DNA from: Thermoproteota archaeon
Lineage (GTDB): Archaea; Korarchaeota; Korarchaeia; Korarchaeales; Korarchaeaceae
NCBI GenBank assembly: GCA_037917625.1
Contig: JAVCBY010000076.1
Location: 1 to 29,072 of the forward strand
Length of the DNA stretch: 29,072 bases
Reading direction: 5' to 3'
Shown here: one piece after another, positions 17,088 through 26,217 of the stretch
Numbering within the stretch: the stretch's first letter is position 1
Layout of the letters: the number at the start of each line of letters is the position of its first letter
Translations under genes and position numbers: made by a program
The notes under the pieces: generated by a model
The model's database searches: none
The model's input: only the letters and a program-made list of their open reading frames with translations
Told to the model about the DNA's origin: nothing

Positions 17088-17379
17088 CTTAAACTTAGCC
17101 CTCCCGGGTATTTACTATCTCAAATTTGGAGCTGCAGCATTTTCCTTCGTTATCTAAATTTCATATATTTTTAAATTATTGACGGTCATTAGGTAAAAAT
17201 TCTTAACAAAATAAACATGAAAAAGTAAATATAATGAGGTAAATGATACGATAGGAGTGCAGATTGATTCAGGAACGAGTTGGGGATGGTGGCGATTCAA
17301 AGCTCCATCAACATTTTTATTATTCCTCACTGGGGCAACTAAATGTCCACCCATGCACGGGGTGGAGGTGATCTTGATC

Positions 17380-18702
17380 ATGAGGGAACGAGTGGTAGTC
17401 CTATTAGCGCTTTTAATCCTACTAACACCGATGATGGCTGAGTCTCAGGGGAGCATTACAGTGGGGTTCGATAGGAAGCACGGGCTCTCCTCCGCGAAGT
17501 TCCCGGAGTTGAAGAAGCTACTTGAGGGCGAGGGCTACGTAGTTAAGGATGTTGAGACAATATCCGAGGATATAGATATATTAGTGATCGTGAACCAGAC
17601 GGCTCCATTGAGCGAGGGTGAGATCAGCCAGCTGGACTCATATGTGAGAGCTGGCCACTCCTTACTGATAGTCAGGAATGTAGTGAGTGCAGTATTCAAC
17701 GCGATGCCCACTGAAGATCCGTTGTGCACGATAAAGGTAATAGGTGGCTGCGACCCATTTGAGGCTATTGTTAACTCGACTTACTTCAAGTACTCCAGGG
17801 AGGTAATAGTCAAGGGGAGTTCCCTGAGCCTCTCAGCTAACTTATCGAGGTTCCTGATCAGCAAGGAAGTATGGATAGATAGGGATAAGAATGGGAGGTT
17901 CACTGAGACTGATCCGCGTCAGAGCGACTTGATCTTAATGGTGGGGCAGAGCTACGGTAGGGGGAGGATAGTCATATCCTCAGTAGATTTCTTCAGTGAC
18001 GCTCTTCTCTCTCAGAAGGATAACAAGTTATTCACTAAGGAGCTCTTCTCCTGGCTCTCATCCCCTTCCTTAGCTAAGAGGAAATATGAGGAGGTCAAAC
18101 TTAAGCTCTCCAGCTTCGTTAACATGAAGAGCGATTTAGATAGGGTAGGGGGAGACTCATCAGTGCTCTTGAGCGTTGCAAATAGCATTAACGAGAGTCT
18201 TGAAAGCGTCAAGGCTATGATAGAGAGGGGAGCTAGTGAGGATGCCTTGAGGCAACTTGAAACGATTGAGAAGAAGATAAATGATTATATGAGCTTCGTT
18301 TCAAAGATAGTGGTTATCGAGACGAAGCTATCCCAGTTCACATCATACCTTGAGGAGACGAGAAAGAGCGAGCCTAACATATCCTTGGATAAGTTCTACG
18401 ATGAGGTCTCGAAGCTCAACTCAGAGAAGAGAACTTTATACGAGAAGTGGTCAGCCGGAGATCTTATAGGAGCTAATCAGACAGCGAACTCCATCCTAAA
18501 TAGCATAGAGAATCTGAGCAATGAGGCTAAATCTTATGTAGCTGAGCAGAAGGAGAAGATCAAGAGGATGGAAGAGGAGAAGCAGAGGAACATAATGATA
18601 GCTTTGCTAGCTGTAGTGATAGTAGTGATAGTTGCAGTTGCCTTCCTACTATACAAGAAGAGGAAGGAAGAGTATGAGATAGAGATAAAGCCCCCAGGGT
18701 GA
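17380..18702 (+). CDS. Secreted, C-terminally membrane-anchored protein with a GIFT (GldG/IFT52)/DUF4350-like domain and coiled-coil stalk
   Basis: GGAGGTG RBS then signal peptide MRERVVVLLALLILL; VGFDRKHG...DILVI...YVRAG...GRGRIVISSVDFFSD...DN..F...LFSWL pattern; helical stalk; TM helix followed by KKRK. Confidence 0.7.
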   Translation: MRERVVVLLALLILLTPMMAESQGSITVGFDRKHGLSSAKFPELKKLLEGEGYVVKDVETISEDIDILVIVNQTAPLSEGEISQLDSYVRAGHSLLIVRNVVSAVFNAMPTEDPLCTIKVIGGCDPFEAIVNSTYFKYSREVIVKGSSLSLSANLSRFLISKEVWIDRDKNGRFTETDPRQSDLILMVGQSYGRGRIVISSVDFFSDALLSQKDNKLFTKELFSWLSSPSLAKRKYEEVKLKLSSFVNMKSDLDRVGGDSSVLLSVANSINESLESVKAMIERGASEDALRQLETIEKKINDYMSFVSKIVVIETKLSQFTSYLEETRKSEPNISLDKFYDEVSKLNSEKRTLYEKWSAGDLIGANQTANSILNSIENLSNEAKSYVAEQKEKIKRMEEEKQRNIMIALLAVVIVVIVAVAFLLYKKRKEEYEIEIKPPG

Positions 18703-18706
18703 GAGG

Positions 18707-18985
18707 ATGTACTCAGATCCCAGGTTAGCTTTCAAGCTCGGGGAGTTCATCCAATCTCTTGAGGACAAGCTCATCTACTCGAAGCCCAAAGTGGGGGATC
18801 TAGTGAGGGAGCTTCAAAGACTGAACGAGATGCTCGAGGAGGAGGACAGGGAGATACCTAACTCCTGGATCGATTACCTCAAGCAGAACTACGGAAGCCT
18901 CGATGAACTAGATCCTGATGATAGAAAAGCGTTAGTTCAGGATTTAGAAGGGATTAAGCAATCAATAACGAATAAGATCAAGTGA
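18707..18985 (+). CDS. Small helical hypothetical protein
   Basis: 92 aa, 4 bp downstream of the previous gene, host-like codons. Confidence 0.7.
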   Translation: MYSDPRLAFKLGEFIQSLEDKLIYSKPKVGDLVRELQRLNEMLEEEDREIPNSWIDYLKQNYGSLDELDPDDRKALVQDLEGIKQSITNKIK

Positions 18986-19894
18986 CTACCTCCCCAAGAG
19001 CTGGGAAATCTCCCTTATTTTTCTTTGAGATGTGAAGCCTATTGAGTAAAGTAGAGCCTCGAGGACAGCTCTCCTGCATATCTCAATGTATATTATGTTA
19101 TCCGAGAGGAGCCTGGGCCTCTCCTCCATGCCAACTCCTAACCTCGCGTAAAGGTCCTTGAGCCTCTCTATGAACTTGAGCATCCCCTCCATGTTGAATG
19201 TCTTGAAGTAGAACCTCGCGCACCCCCTAGAGGGCACGCTCCTGAAGAACCTCCCGCTCTGAAAGGTCTTCAAGAATTGAGATGGATACCTATAGAGCCA
19301 ATATGGAATTTCCCAACCGTCATAAAATTCCCTCTTCGTTGGAGCCCCGAAGAGGAGTAGTATGACTCCGAACTGAGATAATAGATAGACCCTCCTCTCC
19401 CTCTTATTTACGGAGATATCAGAAACCTCGATATTGAGGATCCTCCTAGATAGATCTATGATGTGAGAGAGCTGGAAGTCATCATCGTACCTCAAGGATA
19501 TTGTTGCATTTCCCTTCCCTACCTTGAACTTCGAGCTGCTAGAAACAGCATAACCTATGAAGGAAGCTGCAGCCTCTAGATCGAAATTTGGCTTGAGGAA
19601 CCTCCTTATGCCCATACCCTCGATAGATCGGAGGACGTCCCATAGATCTATCCTAGCTAGTTCAGCTAGTTTCAAAACCAAGGCGAGGGGCATAGGTGAG
19701 CTAGGCGTCGACATTATCTTCATTACTTTAACTAATGGAATGCCAGTCTCCTTCGCTATATTTATGTAATTACTCACCTTAAGAGACCTAACTATGAGCT
19801 CCTGCCTCATCTCAAGGCTGAGCTTCACAGGGTAGAGAGGCGGTGCTTTATGAAAGCTCAGCTCGATCCTATCGAGATTCCCATCCGAAGCCAT
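18986..19894 (-). CDS. HTH + degenerate (probably inactive) LAGLIDADG endonuclease-like protein
   Basis: XRE-like HTH (NIAKETGIPLVKVMKI...MPLALVLKLA), then AASFIGYAVSS, EIPYWLY...FLKTFQSG, LKDLYARLGV, YIEI, SIGFTSQRK: the intein-type DOD scaffold without the catalytic DG. Start moved to MASDG. Confidence 0.6.
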   Translation of the reverse strand: MASDGNLDRIELSFHKAPPLYPVKLSLEMRQELIVRSLKVSNYINIAKETGIPLVKVMKIMSTPSSPMPLALVLKLAELARIDLWDVLRSIEGMGIRRFLKPNFDLEAAASFIGYAVSSSSKFKVGKGNATISLRYDDDFQLSHIIDLSRRILNIEVSDISVNKRERRVYLLSQFGVILLLFGAPTKREFYDGWEIPYWLYRYPSQFLKTFQSGRFFRSVPSRGCARFYFKTFNMEGMLKFIERLKDLYARLGVGMEERPRLLSDNIIYIEICRRAVLEALLYSIGFTSQRKIREISQLLGR

Positions 19895-19976
19895 TCGGGT
19901 GGAATTACTGTAACTGAATAAAAATATTATCTCCAAATTTCGGATGGGATTCCTGCAAAATTTCCAAAGTTACCGT

Positions 19977-19996: not shown

Positions 19997-20965
19997 CTAT
20001 CTAGAAGCTGAGATCCCAAGCAGGCCTTCCAGGGTTGGGGACCTCACGCCTGATGCTATTATAGTTATCCTAGGCTCGTTAAGATCCTCAGCTATCCTGA
20101 ATCCCCAGTAGACCCTCTCGAGGAGATAATCCTCAGTCAGGAGCTTAGTAGCAGAGCCAGCTTCCTCCAGACTCGTATTGGGAGTCGCTTGCAGGTAGAC
20201 TAATGCGGAGTCAGCTTCCTTTACCTCAGCATCAAGTAATATATTCCCTAGGGCTGTCTTAGCAGCATCCGCGACCCTTCCACCGACTCCAAGCCCTACA
20301 GCACCCAGGCCTGCTTCCCTAACCACAGCCTCGAAGTCAGCGAAGCTTATGCTTACGACATGGGGCATGTAGAATAGGTTAGCGAGGTCCGAGATGACGG
20401 CAGCCAGTAATGAGTCAGCGTACTTGAACGCGTATTGAACCTGTATGTACCCGATCTTCCTGCTCAGTATATCGTTTAAGTTCACTATAGTGAGATCAGC
20501 TACTCCCATTATCCTCGAGAGGCCGTATCTAGCGTTATTTACCTTCCCCAATCCCTCCCAGGAGAAGGGGAAGGAGACTAAGGCTATCCTTATCACATCC
20601 GGGAACCTGTCCCTAACTGCGGAGAGTATGGGTGCAACCCCTCCTGAAGCAGTCCCTCCTCCTAGCCCTCCAGTCACTATGAGAACGTTCGGCCTACCTA
20701 TAGCAGCCATTATCCTATCCAGATCCGCCATTATGGCCCTCTCGCCCACATTTGGATTGCCCCCACTACCGAAACCGCCAGTCACAGTTTCCCCGACGAG
20801 AAGCTTGGTATCTGACTTTATCGCTTTTAGGTGGTTGGCCTCAGTATGTATGGCTATCGTCTTTACAGGCGCGCCTACTTCCTTAAGTCTGTTTAAAGTA
20901 TTGCAACCAGCTCCTCCTACTCCCACAACAGTCATCGTCACTCTAGCCTCAGGAGCCCCTGACAT
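19997..20965 (-). CDS. ftsZ: FtsZ/tubulin-family protein, paralog E (5th in operon)
   Basis: GVGGAGCN, AIHTE, GFGSGG, T4 GGGTASG, PFSWEG, T7 SISFAD. Confidence 0.88.
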   Translation of the reverse strand: MSGAPEARVTMTVVGVGGAGCNTLNRLKEVGAPVKTIAIHTEANHLKAIKSDTKLLVGETVTGGFGSGGNPNVGERAIMADLDRIMAAIGRPNVLIVTGGLGGGTASGGVAPILSAVRDRFPDVIRIALVSFPFSWEGLGKVNNARYGLSRIMGVADLTIVNLNDILSRKIGYIQVQYAFKYADSLLAAVISDLANLFYMPHVVSISFADFEAVVREAGLGAVGLGVGGRVADAAKTALGNILLDAEVKEADSALVYLQATPNTSLEEAGSATKLLTEDYLLERVYWGFRIAEDLNEPRITIIASGVRSPTLEGLLGISASR

Positions 20966-20968
20966 CGC

Positions 20969-21958
20969 TTAACCACCTCCCATAGAGCTTAAGAAGTCCT
21001 CCACCATCCTAGACTTGACGCCGAATGTGTAAACAGTGACCTTAGGCGTGGTCATCTCTATGCTCGGCTTGAGGCCGAAGTATACCTCAGGTATGCCTAA
21101 ATTCGTCGTTAGGACATCCTGAACGTACGTCATCCCCTCGACTGAGACAGCTGTCTCAGCTGACTCCAATATACCAACTACACCCTTAGCTCCCTTATGA
21201 TCGGCATCGCCAAAGGGATCGACTAAGGAGGACTCGAATGCCTCTCTTGCAGTCCTCCCTTCCCCGAATCCAGCGTAACCCAATCCAGATCCCTTGGCAA
21301 TTTCCTTCATTACTGCGAAGTCAACGTTCTGCATTCCAGGGAGTGGTGAGAGGTTCTGAAGGGAAGCCAGGCCCTTTACAACGTTGAAGAGCCTATCATC
21401 CATCATCTTATACGCTCTAGTCAGCGGAACATTCGTGAACTTCCTCTTCAGGACATCATTGAACGCGACCCAGGTGACGTCAGATAGGTCTATTATCTCA
21501 GATAGGCCGTACTTAGCGTTATTTATCCTCACCTCTCCCTCGCTCGCGAATGGTATAACAACGTAACTTATAGTTAGAGCATTCGGTAAGCTCTCCTTTA
21601 TAGTCTCAGCCAACGTCACTATTCCTCCTGTTCCCGCACCTCCTCCTAAGCCAGCTAAGAGTACTATGAGCTCCCTATCGCTCAGCATAGATATTAGGTT
21701 CTCTTTAACAGTCTCCATAGCTTTCCTCCCATTCTCTATAGTTCTAGCGCTCCTCCCACCGAGGAAGGATTCACCCGCGAGCACCTTATGATCGGCTTTC
21801 GTCGCATTAAGAGAGGCTGCATCAGTATTCACTGCTATTAACTTCGCATCCGTGAAGCCGGTCCTCTTGATGTTCGTTATCATATTGCAACCTGCTCCTC
21901 CTATGCCCACTACAGCCAGCTTGAGCTGGGCAGTGGGCTCTCCTCTCCTCCAACTCAT
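20969..21958 (-). CDS. ftsZ: FtsZ/tubulin-family protein, paralog D (4th)
   Basis: GIGGAGCN, AVNTD, T4 GGGAGTG, PFASEG, T7 NVDFAV. Confidence 0.88.
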   Translation of the reverse strand: MSWRRGEPTAQLKLAVVGIGGAGCNMITNIKRTGFTDAKLIAVNTDAASLNATKADHKVLAGESFLGGRSARTIENGRKAMETVKENLISMLSDRELIVLLAGLGGGAGTGGIVTLAETIKESLPNALTISYVVIPFASEGEVRINNAKYGLSEIIDLSDVTWVAFNDVLKRKFTNVPLTRAYKMMDDRLFNVVKGLASLQNLSPLPGMQNVDFAVMKEIAKGSGLGYAGFGEGRTAREAFESSLVDPFGDADHKGAKGVVGILESAETAVSVEGMTYVQDVLTTNLGIPEVYFGLKPSIEMTTPKVTVYTFGVKSRMVEDFLSSMGGG

Positions 21959-22191
21959 TTCCTCCTCACCTCCACAACACCTTTAACTAAAACAACATCA
22001 CCAACAGCTAAAATATTTGATGGGGGGAGTGTGTACTCCAAGATTTTCTCACTTCCTCCCCTAGCTATCTTCACCCTTACGAGGAGGCTAGCCTTTCCCT
22101 CTTGATCTATGACGACATCCTCCACTACTCCTACCCTCCTCCCTGAGCTATCTATCACCTCTTTCCCCACTACTTCCTCCCTCTTGATCAT
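21955..22191 (-). CDS. PRC-barrel domain protein (CdpB-like)
   Basis: VVGKEVIDSSGRRVGVVEDVVID...LPPSNILAVGDVVLV; start ATG 22191 overlaps the upstream stop (ATGA) and its own stop overlaps the next ATG. Confidence 0.85.
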   Translation of the reverse strand: MIKREEVVGKEVIDSSGRRVGVVEDVVIDQEGKASLLVRVKIARGGSEKILEYTLPPSNILAVGDVVLVKGVVEVRRK

Positions 22192-23186
22192 GATATCCCT
22201 CCTTGTAGCCACCTGTCGACGAGCTCTGATCTGACTCCAGTCGCTAAGAGCATTATCTTAGGCTCATAAAGCTTCCAGTTCGGCTTTATTCCCCAGAATA
22301 TGCTCATTATGTTGTAATCACTCGAAAGTGTCTGAGGTATCCTGTCGAGCTCCCTCATCACTAGCTGCGATTGGTTGCCCTCAACGTAAACTATAGCTCC
22401 CTTCGCGTTCCTTATATCTGCTTCGCTATAATTTGCAGCTATTGAATTTCTGAAAGCCTCCATCGCATTTCTTCCTCTACCTATCCCTATGAATCCCAAG
22501 CCGGAGTTCCTGACGAGGACTTCCATATTGCTGAAATCTATGTTGACGAGGCCTGGTTGCGGTACTATATCTTGCAGGCCAACTATAGAATCTATTATGT
22601 CGACTAAGAGCTTATCCATCTCCCTGAAAGCTTGGCTAACTGGTAAGTTGCCTGCTCTCTCCTTGAGCAGATCATTAGCATTGACTACAGTCATATCAGC
22701 AGAGTCGAGCATTCTGGAGAGGCCCCACTGGGCATTCCTTATTCTAGTTGGCCCCTCCGATGTGAAAGGTAGAGTCACTATCCCTATAACTATCTTGTCA
22801 GGGAACTTCTCCTTAATAGCTTCAGCTATTGTCGGCCCAGCTCCCGTCCCCGTGCCACCTCCCATGCCCGCAGTTATCATTATGAGCTCCTTGTCCCTCA
22901 GCGGGGTTAATATCTTGTCCATATCTTGCTCTGCTATCATCCTGCCTAGCTCCGGCGAACCCGCAGCTCCCCTTCCTTTGTGAGCGCCCTCCCCGATCAG
23001 TATCTTTATGTCAGCGCTTATCCTCTGCAGAGTAGGAGCATCCGTATTTACTGCGACAGTTGGAACCCTGACGCCATATCTCTTCACGTTGTTCACAGTA
23101 TTATTACCGCATCCCCCAACGCCGACTAACACCATCTTGAGGGCGGAGAGCTCAGAAGCCCTAGCTAACTCAGACCTAGACATCAT
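22188..23186 (-). CDS. ftsZ: FtsZ/tubulin-family protein, paralog C (3rd)
   Basis: GVGGCGNN, AVNTD, GRGAAG, canonical T4 GGGTGTG, PFTSEG, T7 NIDFSN. Confidence 0.92.
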   Translation of the reverse strand: MMSRSELARASELSALKMVLVGVGGCGNNTVNNVKRYGVRVPTVAVNTDAPTLQRISADIKILIGEGAHKGRGAAGSPELGRMIAEQDMDKILTPLRDKELIMITAGMGGGTGTGAGPTIAEAIKEKFPDKIVIGIVTLPFTSEGPTRIRNAQWGLSRMLDSADMTVVNANDLLKERAGNLPVSQAFREMDKLLVDIIDSIVGLQDIVPQPGLVNIDFSNMEVLVRNSGLGFIGIGRGRNAMEAFRNSIAANYSEADIRNAKGAIVYVEGNQSQLVMRELDRIPQTLSSDYNIMSIFWGIKPNWKLYEPKIMLLATGVRSELVDRWLQGGIS

Positions 23187-23197
23187 AGAGGCTCACC

Positions 23198-23512
23198 TCA
23201 TAGCGCACTTCCCATGGATATCATCTTAGACTCTAATATCCTCATAAATGTTCTCCTTAACTCCTCCATATCTGTTACACTTCCTCCCTTCGCCTCAACG
23301 TATTCTTTGACGGCTAATAAGGGAGGTATGTATGGGAATTTCTCCTGCCTCGCGAACCATGCTAGCGAGACCTCGCCTTTATTTTCATCTAAGTACCTGC
23401 TGATCAGCTCAGCAACTGATACCCTAGGCTCAGGTTGAACAGGAGGTTGAGCGGGTTGAACAGGAGGTTGAGATTCCTCCTCCTTCTCCTTCTTCCTACG
23501 GAACATATCCAT
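23198..23512 (-). CDS. Small hypothetical protein with a Pro/Gln linker inside the ftsZ operon
   Basis: GGAGGGGG RBS; MDMFRRKK N-terminus, QPPVQP repeat linker, small helical C-domain; gaps of 9 and 11 bp to its neighbours. Confidence 0.75.
   Translation of the reverse strand: MDMFRRKKEKEEESQPPVQPAQPPVQPEPRVSVAELISRYLDENKGEVSLAWFARQEKFPYIPPLLAVKEYVEAKGGSVTDMEELRRTFMRILESKMISMGSAL
23433..23472. repeat. Intragenic tandem duplication, 19 bp identical at 21-bp period
   Basis: GGTTGAACAGGAGGTTGAG at 23433-23451 and 23454-23472, encoding QPPVQP twice. Confidence 0.85.
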
Positions 23513-23521
23513 CCCCCCTCC

Positions 23522-24550
23522 TCATAAACCTAAATCAGCTAAAAAATCATCTACATATTGGGATCTCACTTGAGTCACGAGTAGGTTGACCCTCACGTCA
23601 GGGTACTCGAAGGTAGGCCTGACTCCCATGAACACAGTAGGGATCCTGTACCTCCTGCTCAATATATCAGTGGCTTCCCTCATCTGATCCACCCTCAGAT
23701 CAACGGATTTGCCCTCGAAATATATTATCGCTCCCTTCGCTTCAGTTAAATCAGTTTTAGCATAATCATCTTGCAGGGCGTCATCGAAGGCCTCGAATAT
23801 GTAGCGACCTCTCCCCACCCCTATGAATCCCAAGCCGGATTGATAGGATATCCTCGAGAAATTACTGAGATCTACGTTAACGTAACCGGGTCCCGTCTCA
23901 GCACTCTGCATCTTAACGAGAGCATAGATGCTCCTCTCTATCTTCCTATTAACCATTGAGAATGCATAATTTAGGTCTACAGCTCTTGCTTTCTCCATAG
24001 CTAGATCGTTAGCATTAACTACAGTCACATCAGAGACTTCTAAGGTCTCCCTCAATGAGAATTGGGCATTCCTCTTCCTCTCCTCCCCCTCCTCCCTCAT
24101 GGGTAATGTAACTACTGAGATCTTTATTGCCTCCTTATTCCTCAAGCCGATCTCCCTCATGAGCACTGGGAGGCCTCCTGAACCGGTTCCACCTCCCATC
24201 CCAGCTATACCTATGACTATATCTACGTTCTCATCCAAGGCTCTCAATACGCTCTCTATATCCTCCTCCATTGCCTCCCTTCCTATATCAGGTACTCCTT
24301 GAGCTCCTCTCCCCTTGTGCGTGTACCTGCCTATCAGGACTTTCTCATCCGCATCCGTCTTCTTTAGTACAGCGGAGTCCGTATTGACAGCTATCGTCTT
24401 TACGTTCTTCGGGAACTTCTTGTAGAATGCGCTTATTATATTATTGCCACATCCCCCAATACCTACTATATTTATCTTAGCCTCTGTAGCTTTCTCTACA
24501 CTCTCCAACCCCCTATCAACGGTCCTCCTCCTAACAGCCATCTCCATCAC
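23522..24550 (-). CDS. ftsZ: FtsZ/tubulin-family protein, paralog B (2nd)
   Basis: GIGGCGNN, AVNTD, GRGAQG, canonical T4 GGGTGSG, T7 NVDLSN. Confidence 0.92.
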   Translation of the reverse strand: MMEMAVRRRTVDRGLESVEKATEAKINIVGIGGCGNNIISAFYKKFPKNVKTIAVNTDSAVLKKTDADEKVLIGRYTHKGRGAQGVPDIGREAMEEDIESVLRALDENVDIVIGIAGMGGGTGSGGLPVLMREIGLRNKEAIKISVVTLPMREEGEERKRNAQFSLRETLEVSDVTVVNANDLAMEKARAVDLNYAFSMVNRKIERSIYALVKMQSAETGPGYVNVDLSNFSRISYQSGLGFIGVGRGRYIFEAFDDALQDDYAKTDLTEAKGAIIYFEGKSVDLRVDQMREATDILSRRYRIPTVFMGVRPTFEYPDVRVNLLVTQVRSQYVDDFLADLGL

Positions 24551-25560
24551 TCCCTTAAGAGCTCCTTAACATCACCTATCATATCCCTCACGAATGGAGA
24601 ATCGACTCCAGTAGCGTAAACGAAGGACTCCGGTGTCCTGAGCATTGGGTTCAACCTAGCCCCAAATGAAATTTTCTCAACATCGTACTTCTCCGTTATG
24701 AGCCTCGGCCCATCTATGACCTCCGAGAGGCTCGCAGTTGGAGGTATCTTGATATAGAGGAGATAGCCTGAGGCTGATGTAGGAGCAGCATCCAGCAACC
24801 TAGTATCTATAGCGCTCTCAACAGCTTTCCTAACGCTCCTATGGGAGCCTATGCCTATGAACCCTATCCCGGATCTCTCTATCATCCCCCTAAGATCTGG
24901 GAAGTCGAGCCTCTGCAACGTATCCCTGGGATCCAGCATCTCGACTATGTAATTTATGGCCATCTTCAGTATATTGTCCATCCTTGAGTAAGCGACTTGC
25001 GCAGGCATCTCACCGAATTTCTCCAAGAGGACATCGTTCATGTTCACTACGACACTATCGTTCACGACGACTATTTCTCTCAATCCAGATTGGACGTTCT
25101 TCATCTTCGTCTGCCCTTCGTACCTGAAGGGGATCGTTACAATGGATATCATAGCTGGGGCCTTATCTCCATACTGATCCCTTATCGCTCTCAGTAGATA
25201 TGGCAATCCGCCGCTCCCCATACCTCCGCCCAATCCAGCTACAGCTATGAGGAGATCGCAGATATCCAGAGTCCTTATAACTTTATCTAAATCCTCATCT
25301 ACTGCTTTCTGAGCTAAGCTTATATCTCCTCCGCTTCCCCTTCCCCTCAGCGTATTCTCCCCAACTTGAATTATCTCATGGGCCTTAACTTGTCTCAGAG
25401 CATTTAGATCAGAGTCCAAAGCGACTAATTTCGCCAATTCCATTCCAGATCTTGCTAAGCTATCGATGGCCTTTATCCCTGCTCCCCCAACACCTAAAAC
25501 AGTAATCTTAGTTGGTATTTCCTCAAATCTAGTTGGAAGACCGGCCCTACTGCTAGCCAT
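24547..25560 (-). CDS. ftsZ: FtsZ/tubulin-family protein, paralog A (1st)
   Basis: GVGGAGIK, ALDSD, GRGSGG, T4 GGGMGSG, PFRYEG, T7 RLDFPD; GGAGGT RBS 8 nt before ATG 25560 (alternative GTG 25566). Confidence 0.88.
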   Translation of the reverse strand: MASSRAGLPTRFEEIPTKITVLGVGGAGIKAIDSLARSGMELAKLVALDSDLNALRQVKAHEIIQVGENTLRGRGSGGDISLAQKAVDEDLDKVIRTLDICDLLIAVAGLGGGMGSGGLPYLLRAIRDQYGDKAPAMISIVTIPFRYEGQTKMKNVQSGLREIVVVNDSVVVNMNDVLLEKFGEMPAQVAYSRMDNILKMAINYIVEMLDPRDTLQRLDFPDLRGMIERSGIGFIGIGSHRSVRKAVESAIDTRLLDAAPTSASGYLLYIKIPPTASLSEVIDGPRLITEKYDVEKISFGARLNPMLRTPESFVYATGVDSPFVRDMIGDVKELLRE

Positions 25561-25621
25561 CCTCACTTACCTCCCATTTTATAGGACGAAAACTCTGGCC
25601 CATCACTTCACTCCCTCTCAA

Positions 25622-25674
25622 TGGTTGGTGATCTCACACCAACCACCTAAAAAGCGACTGAAACTTTTATATAT
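25622..25674 (-). promoter_or_regulatory. ftsZ-operon promoter candidate with a 9-bp inverted repeat at the predicted transcript start
   Basis: Minus strand ATATATAAAA at 25674-25665; TGGTTGGTG-N6-CACCAACCA at 25622-25645. Confidence 0.5.
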
Positions 25675-25971
25675 GTTTTATGTAAAGTTGTGGGGATATT
25701 TTTGGCGGAGTGGAAAGAGCTCCTCAGTATACTCATCAATAGTAAAGTTCGAGAAACCAAAAAAGTCAATAAAGCTCGCTTTACCGAATTACCATTTACC
25801 GTTCATCGTATACATTAATTCTAATGTCATTAATTCCGTTGGGAGTGCGTTCATTGTATCCCATAAGAACTTAGCTCTCAGAGGTCTCAATCGATATAGA
25901 ACGAAAATTTCTTAACGATATTTTCTTTAAGAAATTAAATTAAAATGTTATGCTGGTTCTCTAGACGTTCT

Positions 25972-26217
25972 CTATCTACTGGGTTTGAATGCCATACACC
26001 TCTCAAGATCCCCTTCCTTCCCCAATCGCTCGAATTCAAGCCCCAGCTTCCTCGCTAAAGCCTCTGCAGCCTTCACTGGGAAAGCAGAATCATCTAAAAT
26101 CAGCAAAATAGCTTCTCCCTCTTTCAACTCCCTCACAACTCTGAGGAAAGTAGCTATTGGTGACTCTGTGCACCCCTCCAATCTCTTGGCTGTGTTTATC
26201 TCAGCCACTATCCTCAT
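25972..26217 (-). CDS. TusA/SirA-like sulfur carrier protein
   Basis: 81 aa, GCTESP (CPxP-like), LKEGEAILLILDD; GGAGGTGA RBS; 4 bp after iscU. Confidence 0.65.
   Translation of the reverse strand: MRIVAEINTAKRLEGCTESPIATFLRVVRELKEGEAILLILDDSAFPVKAAEALARKLGLEFERLGKEGDLERCMAFKPSR

What the first reader, a model, noticed from the sequence alone, without database searches (positions are those of the whole stretch)
19997..25560. Five FtsZ paralogs with complementary degeneration of GTP-binding and catalytic loops: candidate alpha/beta-tubulin-like heteropolymer
Seen (T4 / T7; canonical GGGTG[ST]G / NxDFAD): A GGGMGSG / RLDFPD; B GGGTGSG / NVDLSN; C GGGTGTG / NIDFSN; D GGGAGTG / NVDFAV; E GGGTASG / SISFAD. 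None is canonical at both loops. B and C keep an intact nucleotide loop but lack the catalytic Asp (E. coli D212 equivalent); A and E keep that Asp but have altered T2/T4 loops; D is altered at both. Known: hydrolysis is completed in trans by the T7 loop of the next subunit, and alpha/beta-tubulin divide this role. Inference: an ordered hetero-filament, or a nucleator/cap plus stable low-GTPase filament, possibly shaping a thin filamentous cell. As I recall, a five-ftsZ cluster was noted in the Ca. Korarchaeum cryptofilum genome report; the residue complementarity is my own reading.
Basis: partly seen in the sequence, partly recalled or inferred. Interest (0 to 1): 0.88.

Follow-up and report, generated by a model that had tools for sequence, protein, structure and literature searches.

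The report
Five-paralog FtsZ-like operon, two classes
A Korarchaeum genome carries a tightly packed operon of five short FtsZ-like genes whose catalytic and nucleotide loops are altered in complementary, evolutionarily conserved ways, which suggests that they build one mixed, tubulin-style filament, though this has not been tested.

Summary
Window 19997-25566 (minus strand) holds five FtsZ-family genes (A-E), a 104-aa helical protein and a PRC-barrel protein, in one seven-gene operon.

The cluster is already known from the Ca. Korarchaeum cryptofilum genome report. I saw this only as cited in a 2023 preprint.

- The T7-loop changes are fixed signatures of five orthogroups, not decay. They persist down to about 45% identity. 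dN/dS is 0.01-0.05.
- The family is one clade beside canonical FtsZ, split into two ancient classes. A and E keep the last T7 Asp but lose the first Asn. B, C and D lose that Asp.
- Each class-I gene always sits next to a class-II gene.
- The operon also occurs in other Thermoproteota MAGs. The five I searched had no canonical FtsZ and no SepF hit over cut-off.
- The window's genome also has two canonical FtsZ genes and SepF.

A's T2/T4 changes are not conserved. E's and D's are.

Best reading (about 0.5): an obligate mixed polymer with tubulin-like division of labour. Nothing here shows binding. The one complex prediction gave no verdict.

The parts
24547..25566 (-). ftsZ-like A (class I), 339 aa from GTG 25566 or 337 aa from ATG 25560. 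T4 GGGMGSG at 25210-25230, T7 RLDFPD at 24895-24912, T2 DSD at 25408-25416.
   Evidence: ORF. PF00091 2.4e-29. Motif coordinates. Orthogroup A 96*. T7 [RH]xDFxD in 13 of 13 rows.
23522..24550 (-). ftsZ-like B (class II), 342 aa. Canonical T1-T4 (GGGTGSG at 24176-24196). T7 NVDLSN at 23861-23878. Its start overlaps A's stop by 4 nt.
   Evidence: Orthogroup B 100*. T7 last residue Asn in 10 of 10 rows.
23198..23512 (-). s104: a 104-aa protein with a basic N-terminus (FRRKKE), a Pro/Gln-rich linker and a four-helix C-terminal domain. No known family.
   Evidence: No Pfam hit. AF2 mean pLDDT 80, above 90 over residues 33-103. Best PDB fold match E=1. Directly follows B in 20 of 20 assessable metagenome loci.
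22188..23186 (-). ftsZ-like C (class II), 332 aa. T4 GGGTGTG at 22842-22862. T7 NIDFSN at 22527-22544. The paralog closest to canonical FtsZ.
   Evidence: PF00091 5.4e-41, TIGR00065 233 bits. N220 aligns with M. jannaschii FtsZ D238. Orthogroup C 96*.
21955..22212 (-). PRC-barrel protein, 85 aa. Overlaps C by 25 nt and D by 4 nt.
   Evidence: PF05239 2.5e-8, 34.2 bits against a cut-off of 21.2. Found between C and D in every five-ftsZ cluster seen and absent from the 3- and 4-ftsZ variants.
20969..21958 (-). ftsZ-like D (class II), 329 aa. T3 GRSART at 21740-21757, T4 GGGAGTG at 21626-21646, T7 NVDFAV at 21311-21328. Altered on both the nucleotide side and the catalytic side.
   Evidence: In 13 of 13 D rows the third T3 Gly is absent and the last T7 residue is V, I, M or S. 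dN/dS 0.029-0.052.
19997..20965 (-). ftsZ-like E (class I), 322 aa. T2 HTE at 20840-20848, T4 GGGTASG at 20642-20662, T7 SISFAD at 20336-20353.
   Evidence: Among 21 E rows: T4 Gly-to-Ala in 20, HTE in 20, last T7 Asp in 21, first T7 Asn in 0, middle Asp in 0.
18986..19936 (-). Associated 316-aa gene, 60 nt downstream of E. N-terminal HTH-like region plus a LAGLIDADG-like fold (WhiA or homing-endonuclease type). Candidate regulator.
   Evidence: No Pfam hit. Atlas feature hit to LAGLIDADG_3 clusters, 0.94. AF2 pLDDT 72. Foldseek 2cw7 9e-5 and WhiA 8dy7_I 6e-3, with low TM of 0.2-0.37. Homologs at 28-32% identity lie beside the cluster in G035 and G040.
17257..18985 (+). Two convergent genes that travel with the cluster in some lineages: a 481-aa membrane protein (signal peptide and C-terminal TM helix read by eye) and a 92-aa helical protein.
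   Evidence: Weak ABC_transp_aux hit, 32.2 bits, below cut-off. Homologs follow E in L026. The 92-aa type also follows E in L031 and L032.
25567..25971 (-). AT-rich 405-nt upstream region, probable promoter and leader of the operon. TATA-like boxes and a GGAGGT before the ATG, read by eye.
   Evidence: GC 0.425 for 25001-26000. Sequence read. No promoter tool for archaea was available.

Best explanation
The region is a seven-gene operon, A-B-s104-C-PRC-D-E. It encodes a self-contained FtsZ-like cytoskeletal system that is distinct from the canonical FtsZ1/FtsZ2-SepF machinery, which the same genome also has.

The five proteins have a complete FtsZ GTPase domain and C-terminal domain but no C-terminal linker or tail. 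They fall into two ancient classes:
- Class I (A, E) keeps the last T7 Asp, the water-activating residue, but has lost the first T7 Asn. E has also lost the middle Asp. Their nucleotide pockets are altered: variably in A, in a fixed way in E.
- Class II (B, C, D) keeps the Asn and the middle Asp but replaces the last Asp with Asn (B, C) or a hydrophobic residue (D). B and C have canonical pockets. D has a degenerate T3/T4.

Hydrolysis in FtsZ and tubulin is completed in trans by the T7 loop of the next subunit (established knowledge, recalled). I therefore infer that the paralogs co-assemble into mixed protofilaments. Only interfaces with a class-I subunit on top could hydrolyse GTP. Interfaces topped by B, C or D would be locked. 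This is the logic of alpha-tubulin (catalytic Glu, structural GTP site) and beta-tubulin (Lys, exchangeable site).

The likely building blocks are A with B, and D (or C) with E, because those gene pairs are always adjacent and usually translationally coupled.

Shown here: family, motifs, conservation, phylogeny, synteny, purifying selection. Inferred: co-assembly, subunit order, GTPase pattern, cellular role (shape or division).
For: 1. **Tight operon.** Intergenic gaps are -4, 9, 11, -25, -4 and 3 nt.
2. **Invariant gene order.** It holds in 8 Korarchaeum-genus genomes, in G035 of another genus, and in loci from other Thermoproteota MAGs. Among 24 metagenome loci with a B ortholog, A is directly upstream in 21 of 21 assessable and s104 directly downstream in 20 of 20. 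Some of these contigs are the same as the genome loci.
3. **Class pairing.** E is always preceded by D or C, and A is always followed by B.
4. **Fixed T7 signatures per orthogroup**. Further divergent metagenome orthologs agree: 6 of 6 A, 3 of 4 B, 1 of 1 D. Neither of the 2 extra C rows has Asp.
5. **All five T7 loops are conserved.** D keeps N-V-D-F in 13 of 13 rows despite lacking the catalytic Asp. This argues that the loop still docks into a partner.
6. **D cannot act alone.** Its pocket is degenerate and its T7 is inactive, yet its dN/dS is 0.029-0.052. All five genes give 0.012-0.052, against 0.039-0.062 for two housekeeping neighbours.
7. **Phylogeny.** In the careful IQ-TREE run (59 rows), class II has support 100/99, class I 99/96 and canonical FtsZ 100/100. 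The classes persist at 99, 95 and 100 SH-aLRT after removing the 36 T1-T4 and T7 columns.
8. **Autonomy.** In 5 of 5 non-Korarchaeia genomes carrying the cluster, every clear tubulin-family hit is cluster-type (frames of 352 aa or less). Only a weak 32.9-bit hit in a 980-aa frame lies elsewhere. SepF is over cut-off in 0 of 5.
Against: - No result here shows that any two paralogs bind.
- Conserved operons of paralogs can encode separate homopolymers. Archaeal FtsZ1 and FtsZ2, and the several CetZ paralogs of haloarchaea, are not known to be obligate heteropolymers (recalled).
- B and C could form stable, non-hydrolysing homopolymers, as E. coli D212 mutants do (recalled).
- A's pocket changes are not conserved: T4 Thr is present in 7 of 13 rows. 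That weakens the neat pairing of altered pocket with live T7 for A.
- One divergent B ortholog keeps the Asp (NIDFSD, L155). One A ortholog has Asn (P0159).
- Within the Korarchaeum genus only 8 of 21 genomes have the cluster, so it is dispensable there.
- The orthogroup rows are related, not independent.
- The 59-row tree dropped 31 rows (long branches and near-duplicates). No CetZ or tubulin sequence was included.
Confidence: 0.5

Rival explanations
1. Five co-regulated but separate homopolymers, or non-interacting paralogs with divided functions. This would resemble FtsZ1/FtsZ2 or the multiple CetZ paralogs. B, C and D would form static, GTP-locked filaments.
For: - All five keep both FtsZ domains.
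- B and C have fully canonical nucleotide loops.
- Variants with three or four ftsZ genes exist (C-D-E, A-B-s104-C-E), so not all five are needed together.
Against: - D has a degenerate T3/T4 and an inactive T7, yet is under strong constraint.
- No locus seen contains only one class. Every cluster has at least one class-I and one class-II gene, and they are adjacent.
- Overlapping stop and start codons suggest stoichiometric synthesis.
Confidence: 0.2
2. The paralogs are modulators (caps, nucleators or stabilisers) of the canonical FtsZ1/FtsZ2 ring. The PRC-barrel protein would link them to SepF, as CdpB does in Haloferax.
For: - The window's genome has two canonical FtsZ genes, a SepF gene and three further PRC-barrel genes.
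- PRC-barrel proteins CdpB1 and CdpB2 act with SepF in FtsZ-based division (passages read in 10.1101/2023.03.28.534543, and 10.1101/2023.03.28.534520).
- T7-dead subunits would cap a filament.
Against: - In 5 of 5 other genomes with the cluster there is no canonical FtsZ and no SepF over cut-off. Their completeness was not given.
- The paralogs lack the C-terminal tail through which FtsZ meets SepF: 322-342 aa against 383-423 aa for the canonical genes of the same genome.
- The PRC gene is missing from the 3- and 4-ftsZ variants.
Confidence: 0.12
3. A closed, non-filamentous hetero-oligomer of pseudo-GTPases, acting as a scaffold or switch rather than a cytoskeletal polymer.
For: - None of the five has a fully canonical T7.
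- The subunit set is fixed and ordered.
- Two unknown small partners, s104 and the PRC barrel, are encoded inside the operon.
Against: - Both longitudinal faces look conserved in all five: T7 on one side, T3 and T5 (PFxxEG) on the other. That is what a polymer needs.
- No closed FtsZ-family oligomer is known to me (recalled).
Confidence: 0.08

Closest known systems
Archaeal FtsZ1/FtsZ2 with SepF and CdpB PRC-barrel proteins
   Same: Same protein family: PF00091, and best PDB match is M. jannaschii FtsZ at 201 bits. Several co-operating paralogs. A PRC-barrel gene is associated.
   Different: - The cluster forms a separate clade from canonical FtsZ (100/100).
- It lacks the C-terminal linker and tail.
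- None of the five has the canonical NxDxxD T7.
- It scores below the TIGR00065 cut-off.
- It is encoded as one operon, with a novel 104-aa protein in place of SepF.
- It occurs in genomes where no FtsZ1/2 or SepF was found.
Alpha/beta-tubulin (also bacterial BtubA/B and Asgard tubulin pairs; all recalled)
   Same: Two ancient paralog classes. One keeps the trans-acting catalytic acid in T7 (like alpha Glu254). The other replaces it (like beta Lys254). The genes are paired.
   Different: - These are FtsZ-type sequences, not tubulins. All 49 PDB matches at E of 1e-20 or better are named FtsZ.
- There are five subunits rather than two.
- Class I has also lost the conserved T7 Asn.
- Heterodimer formation is not shown.
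CetZ, the cell-shape tubulin/FtsZ family of Euryarchaeota (recalled)
   Same: Accessory FtsZ-superfamily paralogs beside the division FtsZs, in multiple copies, with a possible role in shape.
   Different: - No CetZ chain is among the 49 PDB matches.
- The genes are clustered in an operon.
- The T7 is degenerate.
- They occur in Thermoproteota.
- No CetZ sequence was in my trees, so the relationship was not tested directly.
Plastid and cyanobacterial-derived FtsZ1/FtsZ2 heteropolymers (recalled)
   Same: Paralogous FtsZs that co-assemble, one of them without the C-terminal peptide.
   Different: Both plastid paralogs keep canonical T4 and T7. Here the catalytic residues themselves are partitioned between paralogs.

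Membership tests
FtsZ/tubulin superfamily (PF00091) | Tubulin/FtsZ GTPase domain above the Pfam gathering score | tested here: met
   All five score 98-141 bits against a cut-off of 33.
Cell-division FtsZ (NCBIfam TIGR00065 equivalog) | Whole-protein score at or above the curated cut-off of 295.2 bits | tested here: not met
   A 177.9, B 180.5, C 233.2, D 168.4, E 195.4 bits.
Cell-division FtsZ | T4 signature GGGTG[ST]G | tested here: inconclusive
   Met in B and C. Not met in A (M), D (A) or E (GGGTASG) in the window. Across orthologs: A has Thr in 7 of 13, D in 3 of 13, and E has Gly-to-Ala in 20 of 21.
Cell-division FtsZ | T7 synergy loop N-x-D-x-x-D | tested here: not met
   None of the five has it. 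The comparison group (20 canonical FtsZ plus P0167) has N, D and D in 21 of 21 rows.
Cell-division FtsZ | C-terminal linker plus conserved tail that binds the membrane anchor (SepF, FtsA); feature recalled | tested here: not met
   The five are 322-342 aa and end 10-20 residues after the C-terminal domain. The canonical FtsZ genes of the same genome are 383 and 423 aa.
Cell-division FtsZ | Placement inside the canonical FtsZ clade | tested here: not met
   Canonical FtsZ (bacterial and archaeal, 15 rows) lies on one side of a 100/100 branch, with all cluster paralogs on the other.
Alpha/beta-tubulin-like obligate heterodimer | Stable heterodimer with one non-hydrolysing interface | not testable with these tools
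   Only the sequence prerequisite (partitioned catalytic residue) was seen. No binding evidence.
Alpha/beta-tubulin | Sequence membership in the tubulin family | tested here: not met
   All 49 PDB sequences matched at E of 1e-20 or better are named FtsZ. Tubulin_2 (PF13809) gave only 16-17 bits, below its cut-off.
CetZ | Placement in the CetZ clade | not tested
   No CetZ sequence was available to the trees. No CetZ chain appears among the PDB matches.
PRC-barrel (CdpB-like) division proteins | PRC-barrel domain over cut-off. Interaction with SepF is the functional criterion. | tested here: inconclusive
   The domain is met: PF05239, 34.2 bits against 21.2. Interaction was not tested. No SepF gene is in the cluster.

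The most novel reading that the evidence does not exclude
An FtsZ clade in TACK archaea independently evolved the alpha/beta-tubulin solution. Class-I subunits (catalytic T7, structural nucleotide site) and class-II subunits (inactive T7, exchangeable site) form obligate heterodimers. These polymerise, with the s104 and PRC-barrel partners, into the only tubulin-family cytoskeleton of several Thermoproteota lineages in which I found no FtsZ1/2 and no SepF. There it could be the division machine.
Probability: 0.22. Interest if true: 0.85.

Novelty: new variant of a known kind. Interest (0 to 1): 0.62.

Why it matters
How tubulin's heterodimer arose from an FtsZ-like homopolymer is an open question: one structural GTP, one hydrolysable GTP, and catalysis in trans.

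This operon offers a natural prokaryotic system in which the catalytic residue and the nucleotide pocket are already partitioned between ancient paralog classes, in the archaeal superphylum near the eukaryotic stem. It is small, with seven genes, so it can be expressed and reconstituted.

It also bears on how some Thermoproteota divide or keep their shape. In the five non-Korarchaeia carrier genomes I searched, I found no canonical FtsZ and no SepF, and a clear ESCRT-type locus in only one.

If the paralogs turn out to be independent homopolymers, the finding shrinks to a lineage-specific expansion of FtsZ-like genes.

Tried and rejected
- **Complex prediction** of A + B + s104, scoring s104: no verdict. 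Scores were 0.28 and 0.00 against a mark of 0.32, and the controls were not run. It says nothing for or against binding. The FtsZ-FtsZ pairs themselves were not scored.
- **RNA runs** for the operon: no RNA holder was listed.
- **Rosetta-stone fusions.** P0163-P0165 (744-840 aa, two FtsZ stretches each) ranked high in the representative search. They carry canonical T4/T7 motifs and owe their score to two domains. I rejected them as fusions of cluster paralogs.
- **s104.** No Pfam family and no PDB fold match (best E=1). I considered a SepF analogue, given the basic N-terminus, linker and small domain, but nothing supports it.
- **ESCRT/Cdv in the other carrier genomes.** The Snf7 model is insensitive: the Sulfolobus control stays under the cut-off. 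Only G042 shows two weak Snf7-like frames beside a 385-aa Vps4_C frame. Vps4_C hits in the other four genomes lie in frames of 720 aa or more, or in one short 118-aa frame (G044), which I take as not Vps4-type (inference). Absence is not shown.
- **Conserved flanks outside Korarchaeia.** The upstream and downstream genes differ from locus to locus (pyruvate kinase, MgtC, radical SAM, V4R and others). I rejected a larger conserved island.
- **First dN/dS comparisons** were saturated (dS above 1.4). I replaced them with closer genomes.
- **Literature.**
  - Elkins 2008 (PMC2430366) and the id I tried for Makarova 2010 are not held.
  - I found no residue-level or wider-distribution analysis of this cluster in searches. 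I read only the passages returned by the find calls (11, 12, 46, 49-51, 81, 83, 93, 94).
  - Supplementary tables, which could list these genes, are closed. This applies to the PRC-barrel neighbourhood tables of 10.1101/2023.03.28.534520 and the FtsZ distribution data of PMC8178401.

Full report
**What is there.**

On the minus strand between 19997 and 25566 lie seven tightly packed genes:
- A, 24547-25566
- B, 23522-24550
- a 104-aa gene (s104), 23198-23512
- C, 22188-23186
- an 85-aa PRC-barrel gene, 21955-22212
- D, 20969-21958
- E, 19997-20965

The gaps between them are -4, 9, 11, -25, -4 and 3 nt. A 405-nt AT-rich region lies upstream of A.

A-E all contain the tubulin/FtsZ GTPase domain (PF00091, 98-141 bits). 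All hit the ftsZ equivalog TIGR00065 at 168-233 bits, below its 295.2 cut-off. They are 27-39% identical to each other. An alignment to M. jannaschii FtsZ places C's N220 opposite D238 of that protein.

**Context in the same genome.**

The assembly is 1.22 Mb in 116 contigs and 84% complete. It has seven tubulin-family genes. The two outside the cluster are longer (423 and 383 aa) and carry GGGTGTG with NVDLND or NVDLAD. The genome also has a SepF gene (36.5 bits) and three more PRC-barrel genes. The five clustered genes are therefore an extra system beside an apparently ordinary FtsZ division set.

The five proteins end 10-20 residues after the C-terminal domain. They thus lack the linker and tail through which FtsZ meets its membrane anchors (that role is recalled).

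**Who has it.**

Among 40 genomes of the class, the cluster is present in 8 of 21 genomes of the window's genus. One of these is a complete single-contig genome whose cluster is 95-98% identical. It is also in 1 of 5 genomes of a second genus (G035). The other 31 genomes have one to four dispersed tubulin-family hits. One locus title names Candidatus Korarchaeum sp..

A preprint on PRC-barrel proteins states that a Ca. Korarchaeum genome has a seven-gene cluster with a PRC-barrel gene and five ftsZ paralogs, citing the 2008 genome report (passage read). I could not read that report itself. The cluster as such is therefore already known.

**Wider distribution.**

Protein searches in 5.8 billion sequences found only small sets of orthologs:

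| Query | Orthologs found | Next best hits |
|---|---|---|
| D | 9 clusters, 54-97% identity | 146 bits (generic FtsZ) |
| E | 15 clusters, 50-98% identity | 182 bits |
| A | 5 clusters at E of 1e-40 or better | not listed |

A scan of species-representative genomes with E-specific patterns found E orthologs at 50-68% identity in seven further loci. They come from MAGs labelled Thermoprotei, Bathyarchaeota/Bathyarchaeia and Thermofilaceae.

Gene content there follows the same order, with variants:
- A-B-s104-C-PRC-D-E
- A-B-s104-C-E
- C-D-E, as a second cluster in two MAGs

A metagenome scan with B orthologs gave 24 loci. A is directly upstream in 21 of 21 assessable, and s104 directly downstream in 20 of 20. 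Several of these are the same contigs as the genome loci.

In the five non-Korarchaeia genomes I could search, every clear tubulin-family hit lies in such clusters, in frames of 352 aa or less. The one exception is a weak 32.9-bit hit in a 980-aa frame. SepF is over cut-off in none of the five. Their completeness was not given, so absence of canonical FtsZ is likely but not proven. Flanking genes differ from locus to locus.

I used a non-redundant set of 90 sequences. Near-identical genomes, fragments under 250 aa and six duplicate database proteins were left out. The five paralogs form five supported orthogroups: A 96, B 100, C 96, D 98, E 97 SH-aLRT.

Motif counts per orthogroup:

| Position | A | B | C | D | E | Comparison group (20 canonical FtsZ plus P0167) |
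|---|---|---|---|---|---|---|
| Last T7 residue | Asp 12/13 | Asn 10/10 | Asn 11/12 | V, I, M or S 13/13 | Asp 21/21 | Asp 21/21 |
| First T7 residue | R or H 13/13 | Asn 10/10 | Asn 9/12 | Asn 13/13 | S or G 21/21 | Asn 21/21 |
| Middle T7 Asp | kept | kept | kept | kept | lost, 0/21 | kept |

On the nucleotide side:
- B and C are canonical.
- E has GGGTASG in 20 of 21 rows and HTE in 20 of 21.
- D lacks the third T3 glycine in 13 of 13 rows and has T4 Thr in only 3 of 13.
- A's T4 Thr is present in 7 of 13 rows and its T2 varies.

Extra divergent metagenome orthologs agree, with one exception: a B ortholog that keeps Asp. These rows are related, so the counts overstate independence.

**Selection.**

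Against two congeneric genomes with unsaturated dS (0.35-0.72), dN/dS values are:
- A 0.012-0.025
- B 0.038-0.042
- C 0.030-0.036
- D 0.029-0.052
- E 0.013-0.020

These are equal to or lower than two housekeeping neighbours (0.039-0.062). The word "degeneration" is therefore misleading. These are maintained, specialised states.

**Two classes.**

A careful tree of 59 rows gives three groups:
- canonical FtsZ, 100/100
- A+E, 99/96
- B+C+D, 100/99

Thirty-one long-branch or near-duplicate rows were dropped for this tree. The groups persist at 100, 95 and 99 SH-aLRT when the 36 columns of T1-T4 and T7 are removed.

Rooted on canonical FtsZ, the family is monophyletic and its first split separates the paralogs that keep the catalytic Asp from those that lost it. 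The root itself is not inferred, and no CetZ or tubulin sequences were included.

In every locus each class-I gene is adjacent to a class-II gene: A with B, and E with D or C.

**Mechanism proposed.**

In FtsZ and tubulin the T7 loop of one subunit completes the GTPase site of the next (recalled). A homopolymer of B, C or D could then not hydrolyse. D, with a damaged pocket and a dead T7, has no evident activity of its own, yet it is strongly constrained and keeps N-V-D-F in its T7.

The simplest reading is co-assembly. Class-II subunits would offer intact, exchangeable pockets (B, C) and inert T7 loops. Class-I subunits would offer the catalytic Asp and have altered pockets that would sit under an inert T7. 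This mirrors alpha/beta-tubulin.

I put about 0.5 on obligate co-assembly and less (about 0.2-0.3) on the specific alternating, tubulin-like arrangement.

The cellular role is unknown. Korarchaeum cells are long thin filaments (passage read). However, crenactin is also present in that organism according to the same passage, and most congeners lack the cluster. A shape role is therefore only a guess. In the lineages where I found no FtsZ1/2 or SepF, the cluster could be the division apparatus.

**Accessory genes.**

- **s104.** It has a disordered basic N-terminus and a confidently predicted four-helix domain (pLDDT above 90 over residues 33-103). It has no fold match and no Pfam family. It always accompanies A-B.
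- **PRC barrel.** It occurs only between C and D in five-ftsZ clusters. PRC-barrel proteins act in FtsZ-based division in Haloferax (passages read).
- **316-aa gene.** It lies downstream of E and looks like an HTH plus LAGLIDADG/WhiA-type protein (weak TM-scores). It recurs beside the cluster in three lineages. It is a candidate regulator.

**What failed or is missing.**

- The single complex prediction (A + B + s104) gave no verdict.
- No RNA run was listed.
- Two key older papers and all supplements could not be read.

**Verdict.**

The cluster is already known. The residue complementarity is real and largely conserved. The hetero-polymer idea is plausible, sharpened and testable, but unproven.

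Noticed in passing
L003:898-2049 (G000 contig C44): One of the two canonical FtsZ genes of the window's genome lacks the T1 GxGGxG loop. Its first ~40 residues are unrelated sequence. This could be an assembly join or a real truncation.
   Followed up: partly
window 18986-19936 (-): A 316-aa protein with an HTH-like N-terminus and a LAGLIDADG/WhiA-like predicted fold lies beside the ftsZ cluster here, in G035 and in G040. WhiA regulates division genes in Gram-positive bacteria (recalled). The fold matches are weak: E from 9e-5 to 6e-3, TM 0.2-0.37.
   Followed up: partly
window 17257-18985 (+): A 481-aa predicted membrane protein (weak ABC_transp_aux hit) and a 92-aa helical protein are convergent to the cluster. 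Their homologs directly follow E in L026. The 92-aa type also follows E in L031 and L032.
   Followed up: partly
G040-G044 (genomes of L026, L027, L029, L031, L077): These are Thermoproteota MAGs whose clear tubulin-family genes are all the short cluster type. None has a SepF hit over cut-off. Only G042 shows a likely CdvB/Vps4 locus. How the others divide is open.
   Followed up: partly
G000:C18:9-206 and G000:C109:500-697: Two PRC-barrel matches in the window's genome each contain one in-frame TGA.
   Followed up: no
P0163, P0164, P0165: Proteins of 744-840 aa made of two complete, canonical FtsZ units in tandem. They are unrelated to the cluster family but are natural FtsZ-FtsZ fusions.
   Followed up: partly
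L155:1239-2210: In the most divergent A-B-s104 locus (about 44% identity), the B-type protein still has Asp at the last T7 position (NIDFSD). This may be the ancestral state of class II.
   Followed up: no
P0167 and P0170: P0167 is a tail-less 326-aa FtsZ-like protein with canonical T4/T7, placed near the base of the family. P0170 is an outlying E-like protein (HAE, GGGLGSG, GISYAD). Both are long branches of unknown genomic context.
   Followed up: no
Other Korarchaeia genera (e.g. G005:C41:70055-70585, G038:C6:62359-62862): A third, weakly scoring tubulin-family paralog (54-74 bits, frames of ~390-430 aa) occurs in many Korarchaeia that lack the five-gene cluster. I did not identify it.
   Followed up: no
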